Assembly: GCA_965218795.1 (NCBI GenBank)
Contig: OZ244653.1
Location: 5,024,001-5,088,000 of the forward strand
Reading direction: 5' to 3'
Length of the DNA stretch: 64,000 nucleotides
Source of the DNA: a bacterium
GTDB taxonomy: Bacteria > UBA8248 > JACPRG01 > G963555815
Shown here: one piece after another, positions 25,614 through 29,339 of the stretch
Position numbering within the stretch: the first letter of the stretch is position 1
Layout: each line of letters starts with the position of its first letter
Made by a program: the position numbers and the translations under genes
The notes under the pieces: model-generated
Database searches by the model: none
Seen by the model: the letters and a program-made list of their open reading frames with translations, nothing else
What the model was told of the DNA's origin: nothing

Positions 25614-26670
25614 TTACCCCGTTTTTGTGGACAGTTTATGGCTGTCGTCCCCAGCCCTGATGTGGGCGACAGCCGGTGGACGTACAGCCTTCCCCAAGAG
25701 CGGTGGATAGGGTATCCCCGGAGGGTATGTCTTGACCACCTTTGGCTCGCTGCTCCGGGAAGCACCGGGGACGGTTCGAGCCGGACGATGAGCGTTGCGC
25801 ACTGCACGTGGCGTTTCCTTCGCCGCGGACCGCTCGAAGTCGTTGGGGCTGAGGTAACCCAGGGCCGAATGAGGACGGCGTGGGTTGTACCAGCCTTCGA
25901 TGAATTGGAAGATCGCCATGCGCGCTTCGGCCTGGGTACGGAACGAGCGCCGGTCGATGAGCTCGCACTCCAGCGTGGCAAAGAAGCTCTCGGCCATGGC
26001 GTTGTCGAAGCAATCCCCGGCCGACCCGGTCGAGGGAACCACCCCCATCTCCCGGCACCGCTTGCCGAAGGCAAGCGAAGTGTACTGCGAGCCCTGGTCG
26101 GAATGATGCACGACCCCTTCGGGCCGGCGCTGTCCCAACGCCATGTTCAGGGCCCCGAGCACCCGTTCGGTGCGAAGATGGTGGGTCATGGACCAGCCCA
26201 CCACCCGGCGGCTGAACACGTCGAGCACGACCGCCAGGTACACGAACCCCGTCCAGGTCGGCACGTAGGTGATGTCGGCCACCCAAATCCGGTCCGGCGC
26301 ATCGGCCTGGAACTGGCGTTCGACCCGGTCCGGGGCCGCACGATGGCTCTGGTCCACGCGCGTAGTGCGCGTGCCTCGGCGTCGGCTCACCCCGCCCAAG
26401 CCCGCCTCGCGCATCAGACGAGCTACCCGTTTGCGGCTCACCCGACGCCCGTTGGCCGTCAACTCGGCATGCATCCGAGGCGCCCCGTAGGTGCCGCCAG
26501 ATGCCTCGTGGATGACCCGGATCGTGCCCCCCAACGCCTCCGTCGTGCTTCGCACGATTGGAACGCCCACGGCTTCGCCACGTGTAGTACCCGCTGGAGG
26601 AGACACCCAGCACCCGGCACATCGTGGCCACCCGATGACAGGCTTGGTTCGCCTTCACGAGCCCGAAGAC
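25614..26670 (-). pseudogene. IS3 OrfB transposase with a frameshift near 26545
   Basis: MCRVLGVSSSGYY is in one frame; TYGAPR, WVADITY, HHSDQGSQY, DNAMAESFF are in another. Confidence 0.85.
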
Positions 26671-26718
26671 CTCCCCGGCACCGAGCCGGTCTCCCGTGCG
26701 AACCAGACCGCGGCTTTC

Positions 26719-28083
26719 CTAAGAAACTGCCTCCGCACCCTCCTGCAGAACATACCCCAGAGAAGCGGCCCGTCGGCGAAGATTCTTCACCACACGCTGA
26801 CGATAACGCTCTTCATAGTATGAAGCGCCGGGATCCACATACTTCTGCCCATATCGCAGCGTGTTGTATAGCAGGACCGCAATCTTTCGGGCGGTGGCAG
26901 TCACCGCCTTGGCCTTGCCGATCCGCGCCGACAATCGACGATAGAACGCTCCGAGCGCGGTCTCGGTCCTGCCCACCGCCACCGCCGCCAGACGCAGCAC
27001 CGCAGCGGCCCGATTCGACGTACGGCGCGTTCTCGAGGCCAGAACGCGTCCACCGGAGATCTTGTTCGCCGGCGCCAATGCAAGCCACGACGTGAAGTGC
27101 TTCGCGCTCGGCCATCGAGACATATCCGTCCCACATTCGGCGATGATCTTCAGCGCAAGGTAGGGGCCGACTCCGTGAATCTGGGTCAGGTCTACGCCGA
27201 GCAACGCATACAGGGCGCCTCGTACGTCGAAGTTCAATCCGTTGGGCTGACGCGCCTTGTGCCGAGGCGCGGGCAGCGCCGCCGACGGCTCATCGACGCC
27301 ATCACTGAGGCGACCCAGGACCGCCTCGATTTCCTGGTCGCAGCGAGCCACTTGTGCTTGATACACATCGTACAGCTCCAGGGCCTGTCTCAGCGCAAAG
27401 ACGTGCTCGCGTTGGTAATGCCCGACAAGCGCTTCACGGATCGTCTCGCGTGAGGATTTACAACGGCTGTCGCGCCATGCCGCGAGTAAGTCGGGGTCGA
27501 CGACCCCCGACGCGATCGCCCGAATCATCCGCAGCCCCGTCACCCCCGTGATGTCGGACACAACATGGTGAAGCTGAACATTCATCTGGGTCAGCGCCTT
27601 TTGCATGTGTTGAATGTGCGCCGCTGCATAGTCCAGGAGGCGCTCGCGCTGTCTCAGGTAAGACCGCAACTCTGCGATCCCGCGAGTGGGGCGAAAACTG
27701 GCTCGCAACAAACCGTACTGGTGCAGCTGCTGCAGCCACTGCGCATCGTTCACGTCACTCTTGCGTCCCGGAACCGTCTTCACCTCCCGAGCGTTCACCA
27801 CGATCACTTCCAATCCATGCTCTTGAAGGATCTCGAACAACGGGATCCAGTAAACGCCCGTGGACTCCATCGCGACCGTCTCGACCCCAGCCTCTTCGAA
27901 CCAGTCGGCAAGACGCTGCAGGTCGTTGGTAAAGGTCTTGAAGGTGCGTACGGGCTCGTCAGTACCCTTCGATCCCACCGCGGCCACATGGATTCGCGAC
28001 CCAATGTCCACCCCCGCCGCATTGGGATGGACCACCGTCATGCCTCGGGAAGAACGTTTCGTCCTGCGCTTTGTACTCGCCAT
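26719..28083 (-). CDS. IS110 DEDD (RuvC-like) recombinase/transposase
   Basis: GVDIGS, AMESTGVYW, KSDVNDA; C-terminal GVGP, SWLALAP..ISGG serine motif; AAGGAG RBS. Confidence 0.95.
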   Translation of the reverse strand: MASTKRRTKRSSRGMTVVHPNAAGVDIGSRIHVAAVGSKGTDEPVRTFKTFTNDLQRLADWFEEAGVETVAMESTGVYWIPLFEILQEHGLEVIVVNAREVKTVPGRKSDVNDAQWLQQLHQYGLLRASFRPTRGIAELRSYLRQRERLLDYAAAHIQHMQKALTQMNVQLHHVVSDITGVTGLRMIRAIASGVVDPDLLAAWRDSRCKSSRETIREALVGHYQREHVFALRQALELYDVYQAQVARCDQEIEAVLGRLSDGVDEPSAALPAPRHKARQPNGLNFDVRGALYALLGVDLTQIHGVGPYLALKIIAECGTDMSRWPSAKHFTSWLALAPANKISGGRVLASRTRRTSNRAAAVLRLAAVAVGRTETALGAFYRRLSARIGKAKAVTATARKIAVLLYNTLRYGQKYVDPGASYYEERYRQRVVKNLRRRAASLGYVLQEGAEAVS

Positions 28084-28110
28084 GGGTCCCTCTCCTTAAT
28101 CATGTTGGGA

Positions 28111-28263
28111 GATGTCCGAGAGGCGGGACGGCGGTTCCCATCATTTTCCTAATCGGGCTCGTCGATCGACGGCGCCACAGTCAAGTCCGCAGCAGTCCCT
28201 GAACCACGTTTTTTGCGGGGTCATGATCCTCCAAAAAGCTGACGGTTGCTCCCCCCGGACATC
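28111..28263 (-). ncRNA. Candidate IS110 bridge/seek RNA
   Basis: Closing helix GATGTCCGGGGGG/CCTCTCGGACATC encloses two stem-internal-loop domains; TAGAAT just upstream; segments match target and element end. Confidence 0.65.
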
Positions 28264-28322
28264 GCACATTCTACGCTGCCCACCAAGTTTCCATTCGTCC
28301 AGGAAGACGCCGTCTTGTCCCG

Positions 28323-28576
28323 TTTTTTAGGATCTCCCGCTCTTCGCGAAGCTGACGGACCTCTCGACGAAGCCGCCGCAGCTCCTCGAGCTCCGTACTT
28401 GTCAGACCGTCCTCACGACGGCCCTCGTCGCGGTCGGCCTGGCGCACCCAGTTGCGAATCACCGAAGCAGAACACTCGAACTCCCGGGCCAGCTCCCCGG
28501 GCGTACGGCCCGAGCGAACCAACTCAACCATCTGGCGCCGGTATTCCGGCGCGTAGGGTGAATGAGTTTTCGCCAT
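28323..28576 (-). pseudogene. IS3 OrfA N-terminal part (continues at 26715 beyond the IS110)
   Basis: YAPEYRRQMVELVRSGR...IRNWVRQ...LRRLRREVRQLREEREILK. Confidence 0.88.
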
Positions 28577-28630
28577 CTGAACACCTCCTGCCCACAGTCT
28601 GAAGGTGTCCACAAAAACGGGGCAAATCCA

Positions 28631-28997
28631 GCCAGCCCACGGCTTGGCGCCGTGCCGTGGGCCTCACCAGTTTTTTGACAACAGCTCCTTCAGCGCCGCG
28701 TTGTCCAGTTGTGCCTCCGCCAGAAGTCGCTTCCCATTCTCCGCCTCCAGCTCGCGCAGACGACGGGTGCCGGATATCTCCATCCCCCCGTCCTTCGACT
28801 TCCAGCGGTACAACGTCTGCTCCGATATGCCATGGTGACGGCAGTTCTCGCGTGCCGTGGCGCCGGCCTCATGCTCGCGCAGCACCCCGACAATCTGCTC
28901 TTCGGTAAACCGTTTGCGTTTCATATCGAGTTCTCCTGTACTCAGCCTCTCCAGGAAAACTCCACATGCAATGGCCTGAATTACGGGGGGAAGGTCA
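28631..28997 (-). mobile_element. Truncated IS3-family (IS407-like) remnant: left IR plus OrfA (28664-28924)
   Basis: MKRKRFTEEQIVGVLRE...TLYRWK...LKELLSKNW; end TGACCTTCCCCCCG; OrfB cut off by the adjacent IS3. Confidence 0.8.
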
Positions 28998-29339
28998 AAT
29001 CGACCGCAGGTCTTTCATCCCGCCGGACTACACGATCATAGAAACTCCGTTGCCGCAGGGTGCCCTGAATCCCGAATTTCCAGGCCGCCCGCGGGGTGGC
29101 GAAATCGGGGCGGCACGTTGCCGTCGGGCCTCGGATTCTCAACCCGGTTCAGAACACCATCATTCCAGAGACTGGACGACCGGACCGCGCATTGGATTCA
29201 GGCCGGTAGCCTCTCCGAATCCGGATGTCTTCAGCTTCCGCGACATGCAGGGGTATGCGTATTCCGTGACGACGCTGGTAAGATAACGGGTTTCGGGTCG
29301 ACAACCGACTCTCATGGGAACCCCACCTTCCTTCGCGCC

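What the first reader, a model, noticed from the sequence alone, without database searches (positions are those of the whole stretch)
28084..28322. Candidate bridge/seek RNA in the IS110 left end with readable target and donor guides
Seen: on the minus strand, TAGAAT is followed by a closing helix (28263-28251 pairing with 28123-28111) around two parallel domains. Domain 1 reads AACC..AGCTTT..hairpin..GACCCCG-CAAAAAA-CGTGGTT. Domain 2 reads GGGACTGC..hairpin..GAGCCCG-ATTAGGAA-AATG..GCCGTCCC. At the same position after CCCG, domain 1 carries AAAAAA (28214-28209), equal to the left target flank plus core. Domain 2 carries TTAGGAA (28152-28146), equal to the element's own right end TTAGG plus core AA. 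GCTTT (28239-28235) is complementary to core plus right target AAAGC. Established: IS110 recombinases such as IS621 use a structured RNA from the non-coding end, with target- and donor-binding loops. Inference: this is such an RNA. The fourth guide (right donor, expected CCCGTT) was not clearly found.
Basis: partly seen in the sequence, partly recalled or inferred. Interest (0 to 1): 0.85.

Follow-up and report, generated by a model that had tools for sequence, protein, structure and literature searches.

The report
Bridge RNA of an IS3-targeting IS110
The non-coding left end of a small mobile element encodes a folded guide RNA whose loops match the element's own end and its insertion site, which is the frameshift site of another mobile element; this is a known kind of system with an unusual layout.

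Summary
The region is the 239-nt left end of a 1605-bp IS110-family element (window 28322..26718). It encodes a 454-aa DEDD/Transposase_20 recombinase and sits in the A7 frameshift run of an IS3-family element.

I aligned 55 distinct left ends taken from 80 homologous loci. All stems are kept with compensatory changes: 95.9% of cells are paired against 87.1% when shuffled, and 117 cells show changes on both sides against 34.8. The closing helix is specific to its own partner.

Three loop segments covary with DNA outside the RNA gene:
- AAAAAA covaries with the left flank. All 7 element-site pairs with a non-A6 guide match their flank at 5 or 6 of 6 positions.
- TTAGGAA covaries with the right end of the element.
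- GCTTT covaries with the core plus right flank.

I found no right-donor guide.

The guide order is the reverse of IS621 and ISEc21 and matches IS1111 seekRNAs, although the RNA gene lies upstream of the recombinase gene. No RNA data were available. My verdict is a genuine bridge RNA, a variant of a known kind.

The parts
26718..28322 (-). IS110-family insertion sequence, 1605 bp. The left end starts CGGGAC and the right end finishes GTTTCTTAGG.
   Evidence: Four copies in the genome share identical junctions, and two empty sites define the ends. Contigs join across it, skipping 1607 bases.
28323..28324 (-). Left copy of the AA core. The second copy is at 26717-26716.
   Evidence: The empty site has 7 A's. 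The occupied site has 6 on the left and 3 on the right.
26719..28083 (-). Recombinase gene, 454 aa, with DEDD RuvC-like and Transposase_20 domains.
   Evidence: PF01548 E=4.5e-23 and PF02371 E=1.2e-13. NF033542 'IS110 family RNA-guided transposase' scores 259 bits against a cut-off of 140. The only solved relative is IS621, E=1.9e-5.
28084..28322 (-). Non-coding left end, which is the whole span of the finding. The RNA proper is about 28262-28111.
28268..28273 (-). -10-like box TAGAAT. That it is the promoter of the RNA is an inference.
   Evidence: The pattern TAnnnT is kept in 94% of the homologous left ends counted. No sigma-70 pair with a -35 was found.
28251..28263 (-). Closing helix P1, 5' strand.
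   Evidence: Native duplex energy averages -14.9 kcal/mol against -9.1 for foreign partners, and 0 of 2000 shuffles reach it.
28111..28123 (-). Closing helix P1, 3' strand.
28202..28247 (-). Target-binding domain. Its basal stem pairs AACCG (28247-28243) with TGGTT (28206-28202).
   Evidence: Alignment columns 30-34 pair with 78-82. Cells are 100% paired and 3 of 5 pairs show changes on both sides.
28235..28242 (-). Right target guide on the 5' side of the loop (TCAGCTTT). GCTTT pairs with the top strand AAAGC, which is the core plus right target.
   Evidence: Right-target positions 1-5 are paired in 69-100% of 52 element-site pairs. Native mean is 6.60 of 10 against 6.00 shuffled, 0 of 10000 shuffles.
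28217..28232 (-). Inner hairpin of the target domain, GG(A)GG...CCCC.
   Evidence: Columns 47-51 pair with 63-66, 96.8% paired. The fourth pair reads GC 39, AU 6, CG 3.
28208..28215 (-). Left target guide on the 3' side of the loop (CAAAAAA), followed by an invariant C.
   Evidence: Identity to the left flank is 0.91-1.00 at positions -6 to -1. All 7 pairs with a non-A6 guide match their flank at 5-6 of 6. 0 of 10000 shuffles.
28125..28199 (-). Donor-binding domain. Basal stem GGGAC (28199-28195) pairs with GTCCC (28129-28125). A second helix pairs GCGG (28190-28187) with CCGC (28134-28131).
   Evidence: Columns 85-90 pair with 173-177, 95.6% paired, with 3 pairs changed on both sides. Columns 97-100 pair with 165-170, 84.8% paired.
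28177..28186 (-). 5' strand of the donor loop (ACTTGACTGT). This is where a right donor guide would be expected, but no partner was found.
   Evidence: No excess complementarity to the start of the left end: native -4.75 against shuffled -5.02 kcal/mol.
28155..28176 (-). Inner hairpin of the donor domain, with an A in its 3' strand (28159) that is invariant and that I read as bulged.
   Evidence: Columns 110-116 pair with 139-145, 99.4% paired. Pair types are AU 32, GC 21, CG 2 and GC 33, AU 12, GU 7.
28145..28152 (-). Left donor guide TTAGGAA, which equals the right end TTAGG plus core AA, followed by A.
   Evidence: Of 52 pairs, 45 read TTAGG in both. Four read TCAGG in both and one reads ATAGG in both. 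Two mismatch at position -5. 0 of 10000 shuffles.
28287..28292 (-). Conserved GGAAAC motif (RGAAAC in relatives). It is the reverse complement of GTTTCT near the right end (26727-26722). Its role is unknown.
   Evidence: RGAAAC is present in 54 of 54 distinct left ends at positions 25-40. GTTTC is present in all 65 right ends tallied (locus rows, not made non-redundant).
28323..28612 (-). The 5' part of the interrupted IS3-family orfA (HTH_Tnp_1). The IS110 sits in its A AAA AAA run.
   Evidence: PF01527. The intact copy shows orfA ending 20 codons after KK, with orfB in the -1 frame.

Best explanation
The left end encodes a bridge (seek) RNA for the element's own 454-aa IS110-family recombinase.

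Fold (shown by covariation): a closing helix encloses two stem-loops, and each stem-loop carries an internal loop.

[quoted passage not shown] The 3' strand (CAAAAAA) has the sequence of left target plus core, so it pairs with the bottom strand.

Donor loop: the 3' strand (TTAGGAA) has the sequence of the element's right end plus core.

These three guide-to-DNA relations are shown by covariation across relatives.

Inferred by analogy with IS621, ISEc21 and the IS1111 elements:
- The element excises as a circle joined right end-AA-left end.
- The RNA is made from the TAnnnT box inside the left end and binds recombinase.
- One loop holds the circle junction and the other holds the A AAA AAA frameshift run of an IS3-family element.
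- Strands are exchanged at the AA core, giving a scarless insertion that splits orfA from orfB.

How the right donor half (the start of the left end) is recognised is not explained. I found no guide for it.
For: Recombinase family: PF01548 plus PF02371, and NF033542 'IS110 family RNA-guided transposase' at 259 bits.

Structure: RNAalifold finds four of the helices without guidance. For 24 named pairs, 95.9% of cells are paired against 87.1% shuffled. There are 117 cells changed on both sides against 34.8. Controls with partners slid by 1-3 columns give 38-60%. The closing helix has native energy -14.9 against -9.1 kcal/mol, 0 of 2000 shuffles.

Strand: G-U pairs occur at 34:78 in 55 of 55 sequences, 31:81 in 18, 99:166 in 11 and 116:139 in 7. 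These would be A-C mismatches on the other strand.

Guides: all three relations beat 10000 of 10000 partner shuffles.
- Left target guide: L006 reads CAGGGAAA in both guide and flank. L031 reads TCTCAAA, L050 CAAGAAA, and the L062 family GGCAAA at 4 sites.
- Left donor guide: TCAGG in both guide and right end in L031, L038, L061 and L065, and ATAGG in both in L050.
- Right target guide: GCCTT with AAGGC in L036 and L071, and AAGTT with AAACT in L009, L010, L024 and L029.

Site use in this genome: 4 of 7 perfect CCTAAAAAAAGCC sites are occupied. Seven IS3 relatives reading CTGGCAAAAGC are not occupied. The IS110 copies have no substitutions between them, while their host IS3 copies differ by 3-7%, which argues for separate insertions.
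Against: - There is no evidence of transcription. No RNA run holds the sequence.
- No sigma-70 promoter pair was found, because the -10-like box lacks a -35.
- No right donor guide was found. The 5' strand of the donor loop does not covary with the start of the left end.
- The right-target pairing is short (positions 1-5) and tolerant. The same RNA is found next to AAAGC, AAAGT and AAGGC.
- Most sites are plain A6, so the left-target signal rests on 4 lineages.
- The shuffles do not correct for shared ancestry.
- One perfect 13-nt site outside IS3 is empty.
Confidence: 0.85

Rival explanations
1. The conserved fold is a cis-acting 5' leader that controls translation or stability of the recombinase mRNA, and the short matches to flanks are incidental.
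For: The fold ends 27 nt before the start codon and 13 nt before the AAGGAG ribosome-binding site. No separate terminator or RNA 3' end was found on the RNA's own (minus) strand. There are no RNA data.
Against: A leader has no reason to change its loop bases together with DNA outside the element. Non-A6 guides match their left flanks in 7 of 7 pairs, and all three guide relations beat every shuffle. The two roles are not exclusive.
Confidence: 0.07
2. The repeats act as DNA, not RNA. The internal copies of TTAGGAA and AAAAAA would be subterminal recombinase-binding or pseudo-target sites.
For: The left end holds same-sense copies of the right end and of the target half-site. It also holds a conserved RGAAAC that is the inverse of GTTTCT at the right end.
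Against: The segments sit in loops framed by helices that keep pairing through compensatory and G-U changes, which points to selection on one transcribed strand. The right target guide is complementary to its partner, not identical.
Confidence: 0.04
3. Chance resemblance in a G+C-rich untranslated region.
For: The single-sequence fold is no better than shuffles, z = +0.3. The guide matches are 5-7 nt and one is a run of A.
Against: Conservation and covariation in 55 distinct sequences from many phyla.
Confidence: 0.01

Closest known systems
IS621 bridge RNA (Durrant et al. 2024, PMC11208160; Hiraizumi et al. 2024, PMC11208158)
   Same: The RNA is encoded in the left end, upstream of a DEDD plus Transposase_20 recombinase. 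It has two stem-loops, each with an internal loop, one for the target and one for the donor. Left guides carry the top-strand sequence including a 2-nt core, and the right target guide is short and complementary. In my reading, each left guide follows a stem strand of the form A-N4-G-N, which resembles the flipped-out A and syn G that Hiraizumi et al. describe before each IS621 guide (inference from text passages).
   Different: [quoted passage not shown] Here the 3' side does. IS621 has a 5' stem-loop and no reported closing helix, whereas here a closing helix of up to 13 bp makes a three-way junction. IS621 has a right donor guide, and none was found here. The core is AA, not CT. The recombinase is 454 aa against 326-328 aa and only distantly related (E=1.9e-5). 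The -10 box lies about 50 nt inside the left end, so the right end cannot supply a -35 as it does in IS621.
ISEc21 seekRNA (Siddiquee et al. 2024, PMC11187229)
   Same: It is an IS110-type element with an upstream non-coding region. Its RNA carries matches to both strands of the target. It also targets a conserved site inside IS3-family transposase genes.
   Different: In ISEc21 the top-strand match lies 3' of the bottom-strand match. Here it lies 5'. [quoted passage not shown] The ISEc21 transposase is 358 aa.
IS1111-type seekRNAs and bridge RNAs (ISEc11, ISPa11, ISKpn4; PMC11187229 section 9; PMC11208160 section 12)
   Same: The order of guides is the same: the segment complementary to the top strand lies 5' of the one complementary to the bottom strand. 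There is a possible subterminal inverted repeat, GTTTCT with RGAAAC. Donor recognition is not a simple four-guide loop.
   Different: In those elements the non-coding region lies downstream of the gene and the transposases are 330-350 aa. Here it lies upstream and the protein is 454 aa. The left copy of the repeat is 25-40 nt from the end, not a few bases.

Membership tests
IS110-family bridge RNA (as defined for IS621) | Encoded in the long non-coding end of an element whose recombinase has PF01548 plus PF02371 | tested here: met
IS110-family bridge RNA (as defined for IS621) | Two stem-loops with internal loops, conserved with covariation | tested here: met
   (95.9% paired, 117 cells changed on both sides).
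IS110-family bridge RNA (as defined for IS621) | Left target guide matches left target plus core and covaries with it | tested here: met
   (0 of 10000 shuffles). (7 of 7 pairs with a non-A6 guide match at 5-6 of 6).
IS110-family bridge RNA (as defined for IS621) | Right target guide complementary to core plus right target | tested here: met
   right-target positions 1-5 are paired in 69-100% of pairs, 0 of 10000 shuffles. The pairing is short and tolerant.
IS110-family bridge RNA (as defined for IS621) | Left donor guide matches right end plus core | tested here: met
   (both the TCAGG and the ATAGG variants are followed by the guide).
IS110-family bridge RNA (as defined for IS621) | Right donor guide complementary to core plus the start of the left end | tested here: not met
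   No consistent segment. The donor-loop 5' strand gives native -4.75 against shuffled -5.02 kcal/mol. The weak signal in the 5' leader (8 of 1000) is equally strong against the bottom strand (17 of 1000).
IS110-family bridge RNA (as defined for IS621) | [quoted passage not shown] | tested here: not met
   Here both same-sense guides lie on the 3' side.
IS110-family bridge RNA (as defined for IS621) | The RNA is transcribed and bound by the recombinase | not testable with these tools
   No RNA holder was listed.
IS110-family bridge RNA (as defined for IS621) | Match to a curated RNA family model | tested here: inconclusive
   No Rfam 15 family matches this region at E<=1. I do not know whether Rfam holds a bridge RNA model.
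IS1111-type seekRNA | The top-strand-complementary segment lies 5' of the bottom-strand-complementary one | tested here: met
.
IS1111-type seekRNA | Non-coding region downstream of the transposase gene, and a transposase of 330-350 aa | tested here: not met
   Upstream, and 454 aa.
IS1111-type seekRNA | Subterminal inverted repeats close to both ends | tested here: inconclusive
   GTTTCT lies 4 nt from the right end, but RGAAAC lies 25-40 nt from the left end. No covariation is available.

The most novel reading that the evidence does not exclude
This widespread clade of about 450-aa IS110 recombinases may use a distinct bridge-RNA architecture. It would be a closed three-way junction in which each loop is connected the other way round compared with IS621: the long same-sense guides follow the inner hairpin instead of the basal stem, which gives the IS1111 guide order in an upstream RNA gene. 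It would have no RNA guide for the right donor half. That half would be read some other way, for example by the recombinase binding the conserved left-end hairpin and the RGAAAC/GTTTCT repeat, or through the single invariant C that follows the left target guide. The clade as a whole would specialise in disabling IS3-family elements at their frameshift site.
Probability: 0.3. Interest if true: 0.6.

Novelty: new variant of a known kind. Interest (0 to 1): 0.5.

Why it matters
It shows that a bridge RNA can be recognised, and three of its four guides read off, in an uncharacterised and very widespread IS110 clade. Tblastn gave 499 relatives in the genome collection and 512 plasmid records.

The layout differs from the two upstream-RNA systems that have been tested at the bench. 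That bears on how the IS110 and IS1111 arrangements are related. It also bears on how many guides a working system needs, since no right donor guide is apparent here.

The natural target is the -1 frameshift heptamer of IS3-family elements. This is a clear case of one insertion sequence parasitising and inactivating another at its most conserved short motif.

As a tool the system offers only about 5-8 nt per guide, so it is unlikely to improve on IS621-type systems.

Tried and rejected
- Single-sequence folding of the 239-nt left end gave z = +0.3, and the minimum-free-energy structure is not the conserved one. It is uninformative.
- The Rfam 15 scan of 26000-29000 at E<=1 gave only a chance Xoo2 match inside the recombinase gene.
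- The sigma-70 scan of 28000-28420 gave no promoter pair.
- Mutual information between RNA columns and DNA positions was swamped by shared ancestry for the right donor region. I used it only to fix the registers of the three other guides.
- I looked for the right donor guide in three ways. Runs of 5 or more Watson-Crick pairs against core plus the start of the left end showed no consistent place. The window scan's top hit, columns 108-112, lies largely in the donor hairpin stem (columns 110-111 pair with 144-145) and does not vary. Native-versus-shuffled duplex energies for the donor-loop 5' strand, the tail after the left donor guide, and left-end positions 11-45 showed no excess. The 5' leader gave a weak excess against both DNA strands (8 and 17 of 1000), which I read as composition.
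- No RNA holder was listed by the look-up of sequencing runs. Laying contigs of four runs showed only presence and the empty-site joint.
- A circle or tandem junction was not found in this genome.
- Two extra AAAAAACGGGAC sites in the genome are chance matches of 6-7 nt.
- I did not build a covariance model, because the alignment-based counts already answered the structural question.
- Supplements and figures of the papers were not visible. I therefore cannot say whether this clade is among the six structures of Durrant Fig. 6d or the 86 models of bioRxiv 10.64898/2026.10.21.760802.

Full report
**What is there**

On the minus strand, window 28322..26718 is a 1605-bp insertion sequence. Its single gene (28083..26719) encodes a 454-aa protein with the DEDD_Tnp_IS110 and Transposase_20 domains. 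The protein reaches 259 bits on NCBIfam NF033542, which NCBI names 'IS110 family RNA-guided transposase'. The only solved relative by sequence is the IS621 recombinase, and it is distant (E=1.9e-5).

The finding's span, 28322..28084, is the whole non-coding left end.

**Ends, core and target**

The genome (one contig of 5.17 Mb) holds four copies, all at the same place in copies of an IS3-family element. The junctions are ...GATCCTAAAAAA|CGGGAC... and ...GTTTCTTAGG|AAAGCCGCGG. Two uninterrupted IS3 copies read GATCCTAAAAAAAGCCGCGG. Contigs of two public runs carry the empty form, a joint from 26715 to 28323 with 2 ambiguous letters.

In an intact copy, orfA reads ...REILKKAAVW... and stops 20 codons later, while the HTH_21/rve reading frame continues in the -1 frame from the same place. 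The A AAA AAA run is therefore at the orfA/orfB overlap. From established knowledge of IS3-family elements (recalled, not tested here), that is where the programmed -1 frameshift heptamer lies.

The four IS110 copies show no substitutions and one single-base indel. Their host IS3 copies differ by up to 3.5% on the left and 7% on the right. This points to at least three separate insertions rather than copying of one composite.

Of seven perfect CCTAAAAAAAGCC sites in the genome, four are occupied. Seven IS3 relatives that read CTGGCAAAAGC at the same place are empty.

**Relatives**

A scan of one genome per species gave 499 confirmed relatives of the recombinase, of which the best 80 were kept (62-92% identity, many phyla). 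I took the 300 nt upstream of each gene and aligned them. The RNA region was then aligned as 55 distinct sequences, alignment A1. I dropped L005, which has a run of N. I also dropped L058 and L060, which are cut by contig ends, and all rows with an identical RNA segment.

Most relatives lie in the same kind of site, with the left flank ending in AAAAAA. Where readable, the site is inside an IS3-type orfA, with left flanks encoding ...REILKK and right flanks reading AAAGC or AAGGC.

**The fold**

RNAalifold on A1 finds four helices by itself: the basal stem and inner hairpin of domain 1, and the basal stem and inner hairpin of domain 2.

I named 24 pairs, adding a second helix in domain 2 and the two G-C pairs that extend its hairpin. 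The counts are as follows:
- 95.9% of 1316 cells form standard pairs, against 87.1% after shuffling (0 of 500 shuffles reach it).
- 117 cells have changes on both sides, against 34.8 (0 of 500).
- The covariation score is 0.291 against 0.126.
- Structures slid by 1-3 columns give 38-60% paired.

The count of pairs with at least one change on both sides is less clear (10 against 8.5; 82 of 500 shuffles reach it).

The closing helix is out of register in the alignment, so I tested it sequence by sequence. The 5' and 3' segments of the same RNA give a mean duplex energy of -14.9 kcal/mol. Segments from different RNAs give -9.1 kcal/mol, and 0 of 2000 shuffles reach the native value.

Invariant or frequent G-U pairs (34:78 in 55 of 55, 31:81 in 18) would be A-C on the other strand. 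The selected molecule is therefore an RNA of the same sense as the recombinase gene.

**The guides**

I fixed the registers from the alignment and then compared native RNA-DNA pairs with shuffled partners.

| Guide relation | Pairs (n) | Native mean | Shuffled mean |
|---|---|---|---|
| 3' strand of loop 1 (columns 67-75) vs last 9 nt of left flank, identity | 65 | 6.72 | 6.09 |
| 3' strand of loop 2 (columns 145-152) vs last 8 nt of right end, identity | 52 | 5.00 | 4.82 |
| 5' strand of loop 1 vs first 10 nt after the right end, complementarity | 52 | 6.60 | 6.00 |

In each case 0 of 10000 shuffles reach the native value. These shuffles ignore relatedness, so the individual cases matter more.

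Left target guide. Of 65 element-site pairs:
- 50 are A6 in both guide and flank.
- 7 pairs have a non-A6 guide (L006 GGGAAA, L031 CTCAAA, L050 AAGAAA, and the L062 family GGCAAA at four sites). They match the flank at 6 of 6 positions in six pairs and 5 of 6 in one.
- 7 pairs have a guide that is A6 or not different from A6 (two of them, L032 and L034, carry an alignment gap at the first of the six columns). Their flanks carry one mismatch.
- One outlier, L078, has a misplaced boundary.

Left donor guide. Of 52 pairs, 45 are TTAGG in both. Four are TCAGG in both and one is ATAGG in both. Two mismatch at position -5.

Right target guide. It pairs well only with core plus three bases (69-100% at positions 1-5, then 33-60%). 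Clear changes are GCCTT with AAGGC (L036, L071) and AAGTT with AAACT (L009, L010, L024, L029). The same RNA is also found beside AAAGC, AAAGT and AAGGC.

For the window's own RNA the readings are:
- GCTTT (28239-28235) pairs with AAAGC.
- CAAAAAA (28215-28209) matches TAAAAAA with a mismatch at -7.
- TTAGGAA (28152-28146) matches the right end plus core.

**The missing guide**

The start of the left end varies a great deal between relatives (CGGGAC, CGCCCC, CTTCCT, CCGCC and others). A right donor guide should therefore show up as covariation. It does not, and searches give no consistent segment. The window and L075 share the same donor-loop 5' strand (CTTGACTGT) but have unrelated left-end starts. 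GTCCCG at 28129-28124 in the window is complementary to its left-end start. However, it is the 3' strand of a stem plus the following G, and it does not follow the left-end start in relatives. I treat the right donor guide as tested and not found.

**Comparison with what is known**

The texts of Durrant et al. (sections 5, 6, 12 and one legend read) and Hiraizumi et al. [quoted passage not shown] They place the short top-strand guides on the 3' side. Here the sides are exchanged in both loops.

Siddiquee et al. (abstract and sections 6, 9, 12, 13 read) report that this order differs between families. In IS1111 seekRNAs the top-strand match is 5' of the bottom-strand match. In the IS110-type ISEc21 it is 3'. 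The present RNA has the IS1111 order. Yet its gene lies upstream of a 454-aa recombinase, a length those authors assign to the subgroup that contains IS110 itself.

Going round each internal loop, the order here is stem, right guide, hairpin, left guide. This is the IS621 order if the roles of basal stem and hairpin are exchanged. The stem strand that leads into each left guide has the form A-N4-G-N-guide, which is like the flipped A and syn G described before the IS621 guides. This 'permuted loop' reading is my inference.

Each left guide is followed by a fixed base equal to the first base of the recombinant junction. C follows the left target guide, and every left end starts with C. A follows the left donor guide, and most right flanks continue with A. 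This resembles the handshake positions of IS621, and it is also an inference.

A 2026 preprint (passages and section 8 read) reports 86 covariance models of bridge RNAs, many of which deviate from IS621. Variants as such are therefore expected. I could not check whether this one is among them.

Two literature searches bear on prior reports of this target. The terms were IS110 family, IS3 family, bridge RNA and frameshift, and seekRNA, IS1111 and IS110. Neither listed a paper whose title or abstract start describes an IS110 that targets the IS3 frameshift site.

**Verdict**

This is a bridge/seek RNA gene with readable left-target, right-target and left-donor guides. It belongs to an unnamed and widespread IS110 clade that inserts into the frameshift run of IS3-family elements. 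Its layout departs from the tested upstream-RNA systems in guide order, in having a closing helix, and in lacking a detectable right donor guide. Transcription, recombinase binding and guide function are inferred and not shown.

Noticed in passing
window 28330-28323 with 26717-26708; G000 C1:2857749 and 225178: The insertion site is the A AAA AAA run at the orfA/orfB overlap of an IS3-family element. Where the flank can be read, most relatives from other phyla sit in the same kind of IS3 orfA '..ILKK' site.
   Followed up: partly
window 28292-28287 and 26727-26722: RGAAAC is present in 54 of 54 distinct left ends, 25-40 nt from the end. It is the reverse complement of GTTTCT, found 4 nt from the right end (GTTTC in all 65 right ends tallied). 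It may be a subterminal inverted repeat or a protein site. It is too close to the -10-like box to serve as a standard -35.
   Followed up: partly
L014/L015, L018 and L064, right flanks: Head-to-tail tandem copies are joined as right end GG-AAA-C left end in three different genomes. That is one A more than the expected circle junction. The downstream left end is 100% identical in L064, 80% in L015 and L018 and 51% in L014, by ungapped comparison.
   Followed up: partly
L003 and L004 (G000 C1:4907788-4909429 and 2706284-2707925): Two of the four genomic copies are 1606 bp long. They carry one extra base that breaks the recombinase frame after about residue 142. One public run shows an inserted G after window position 27633.
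   Followed up: partly
window 28208 and 28145: An invariant C follows the left target guide, and every left end starts with C. An A usually follows the left donor guide, and most right flanks continue with A. These positions match the recombinant junctions, like handshake positions.
   Followed up: no
G000 C1: 177628, 506085, 1637706, 1909867, 2003096, 2655885, 4373870: Seven IS3 relatives in the same genome read CTGGCAAAAGC at the equivalent site and are unoccupied. The L062 family of elements in another genome carries the guide GGCAAA and sits in sites of that type.
   Followed up: partly
G000 C1:2484029: A third perfect 13-nt match to the target (CCTAAAAAAAGCC) lies outside any IS3, next to a terminator-like hairpin. 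It is unoccupied.
   Followed up: no
G000 C1: 2704917, 2645172, 2227732, 784994, 3135470 and others: The genome holds further, different IS110-family recombinase genes (11 matches to PF01548 in all, including the four copies studied). One lies directly beside copy L004.
   Followed up: no
window 28316-28304: The first about 30 nt of the left end form a short hairpin, AAGAC-GGC-GTCTT. Relatives have a G+C-rich hairpin at the same place with a different sequence. It lies upstream of the presumed RNA start.
   Followed up: no
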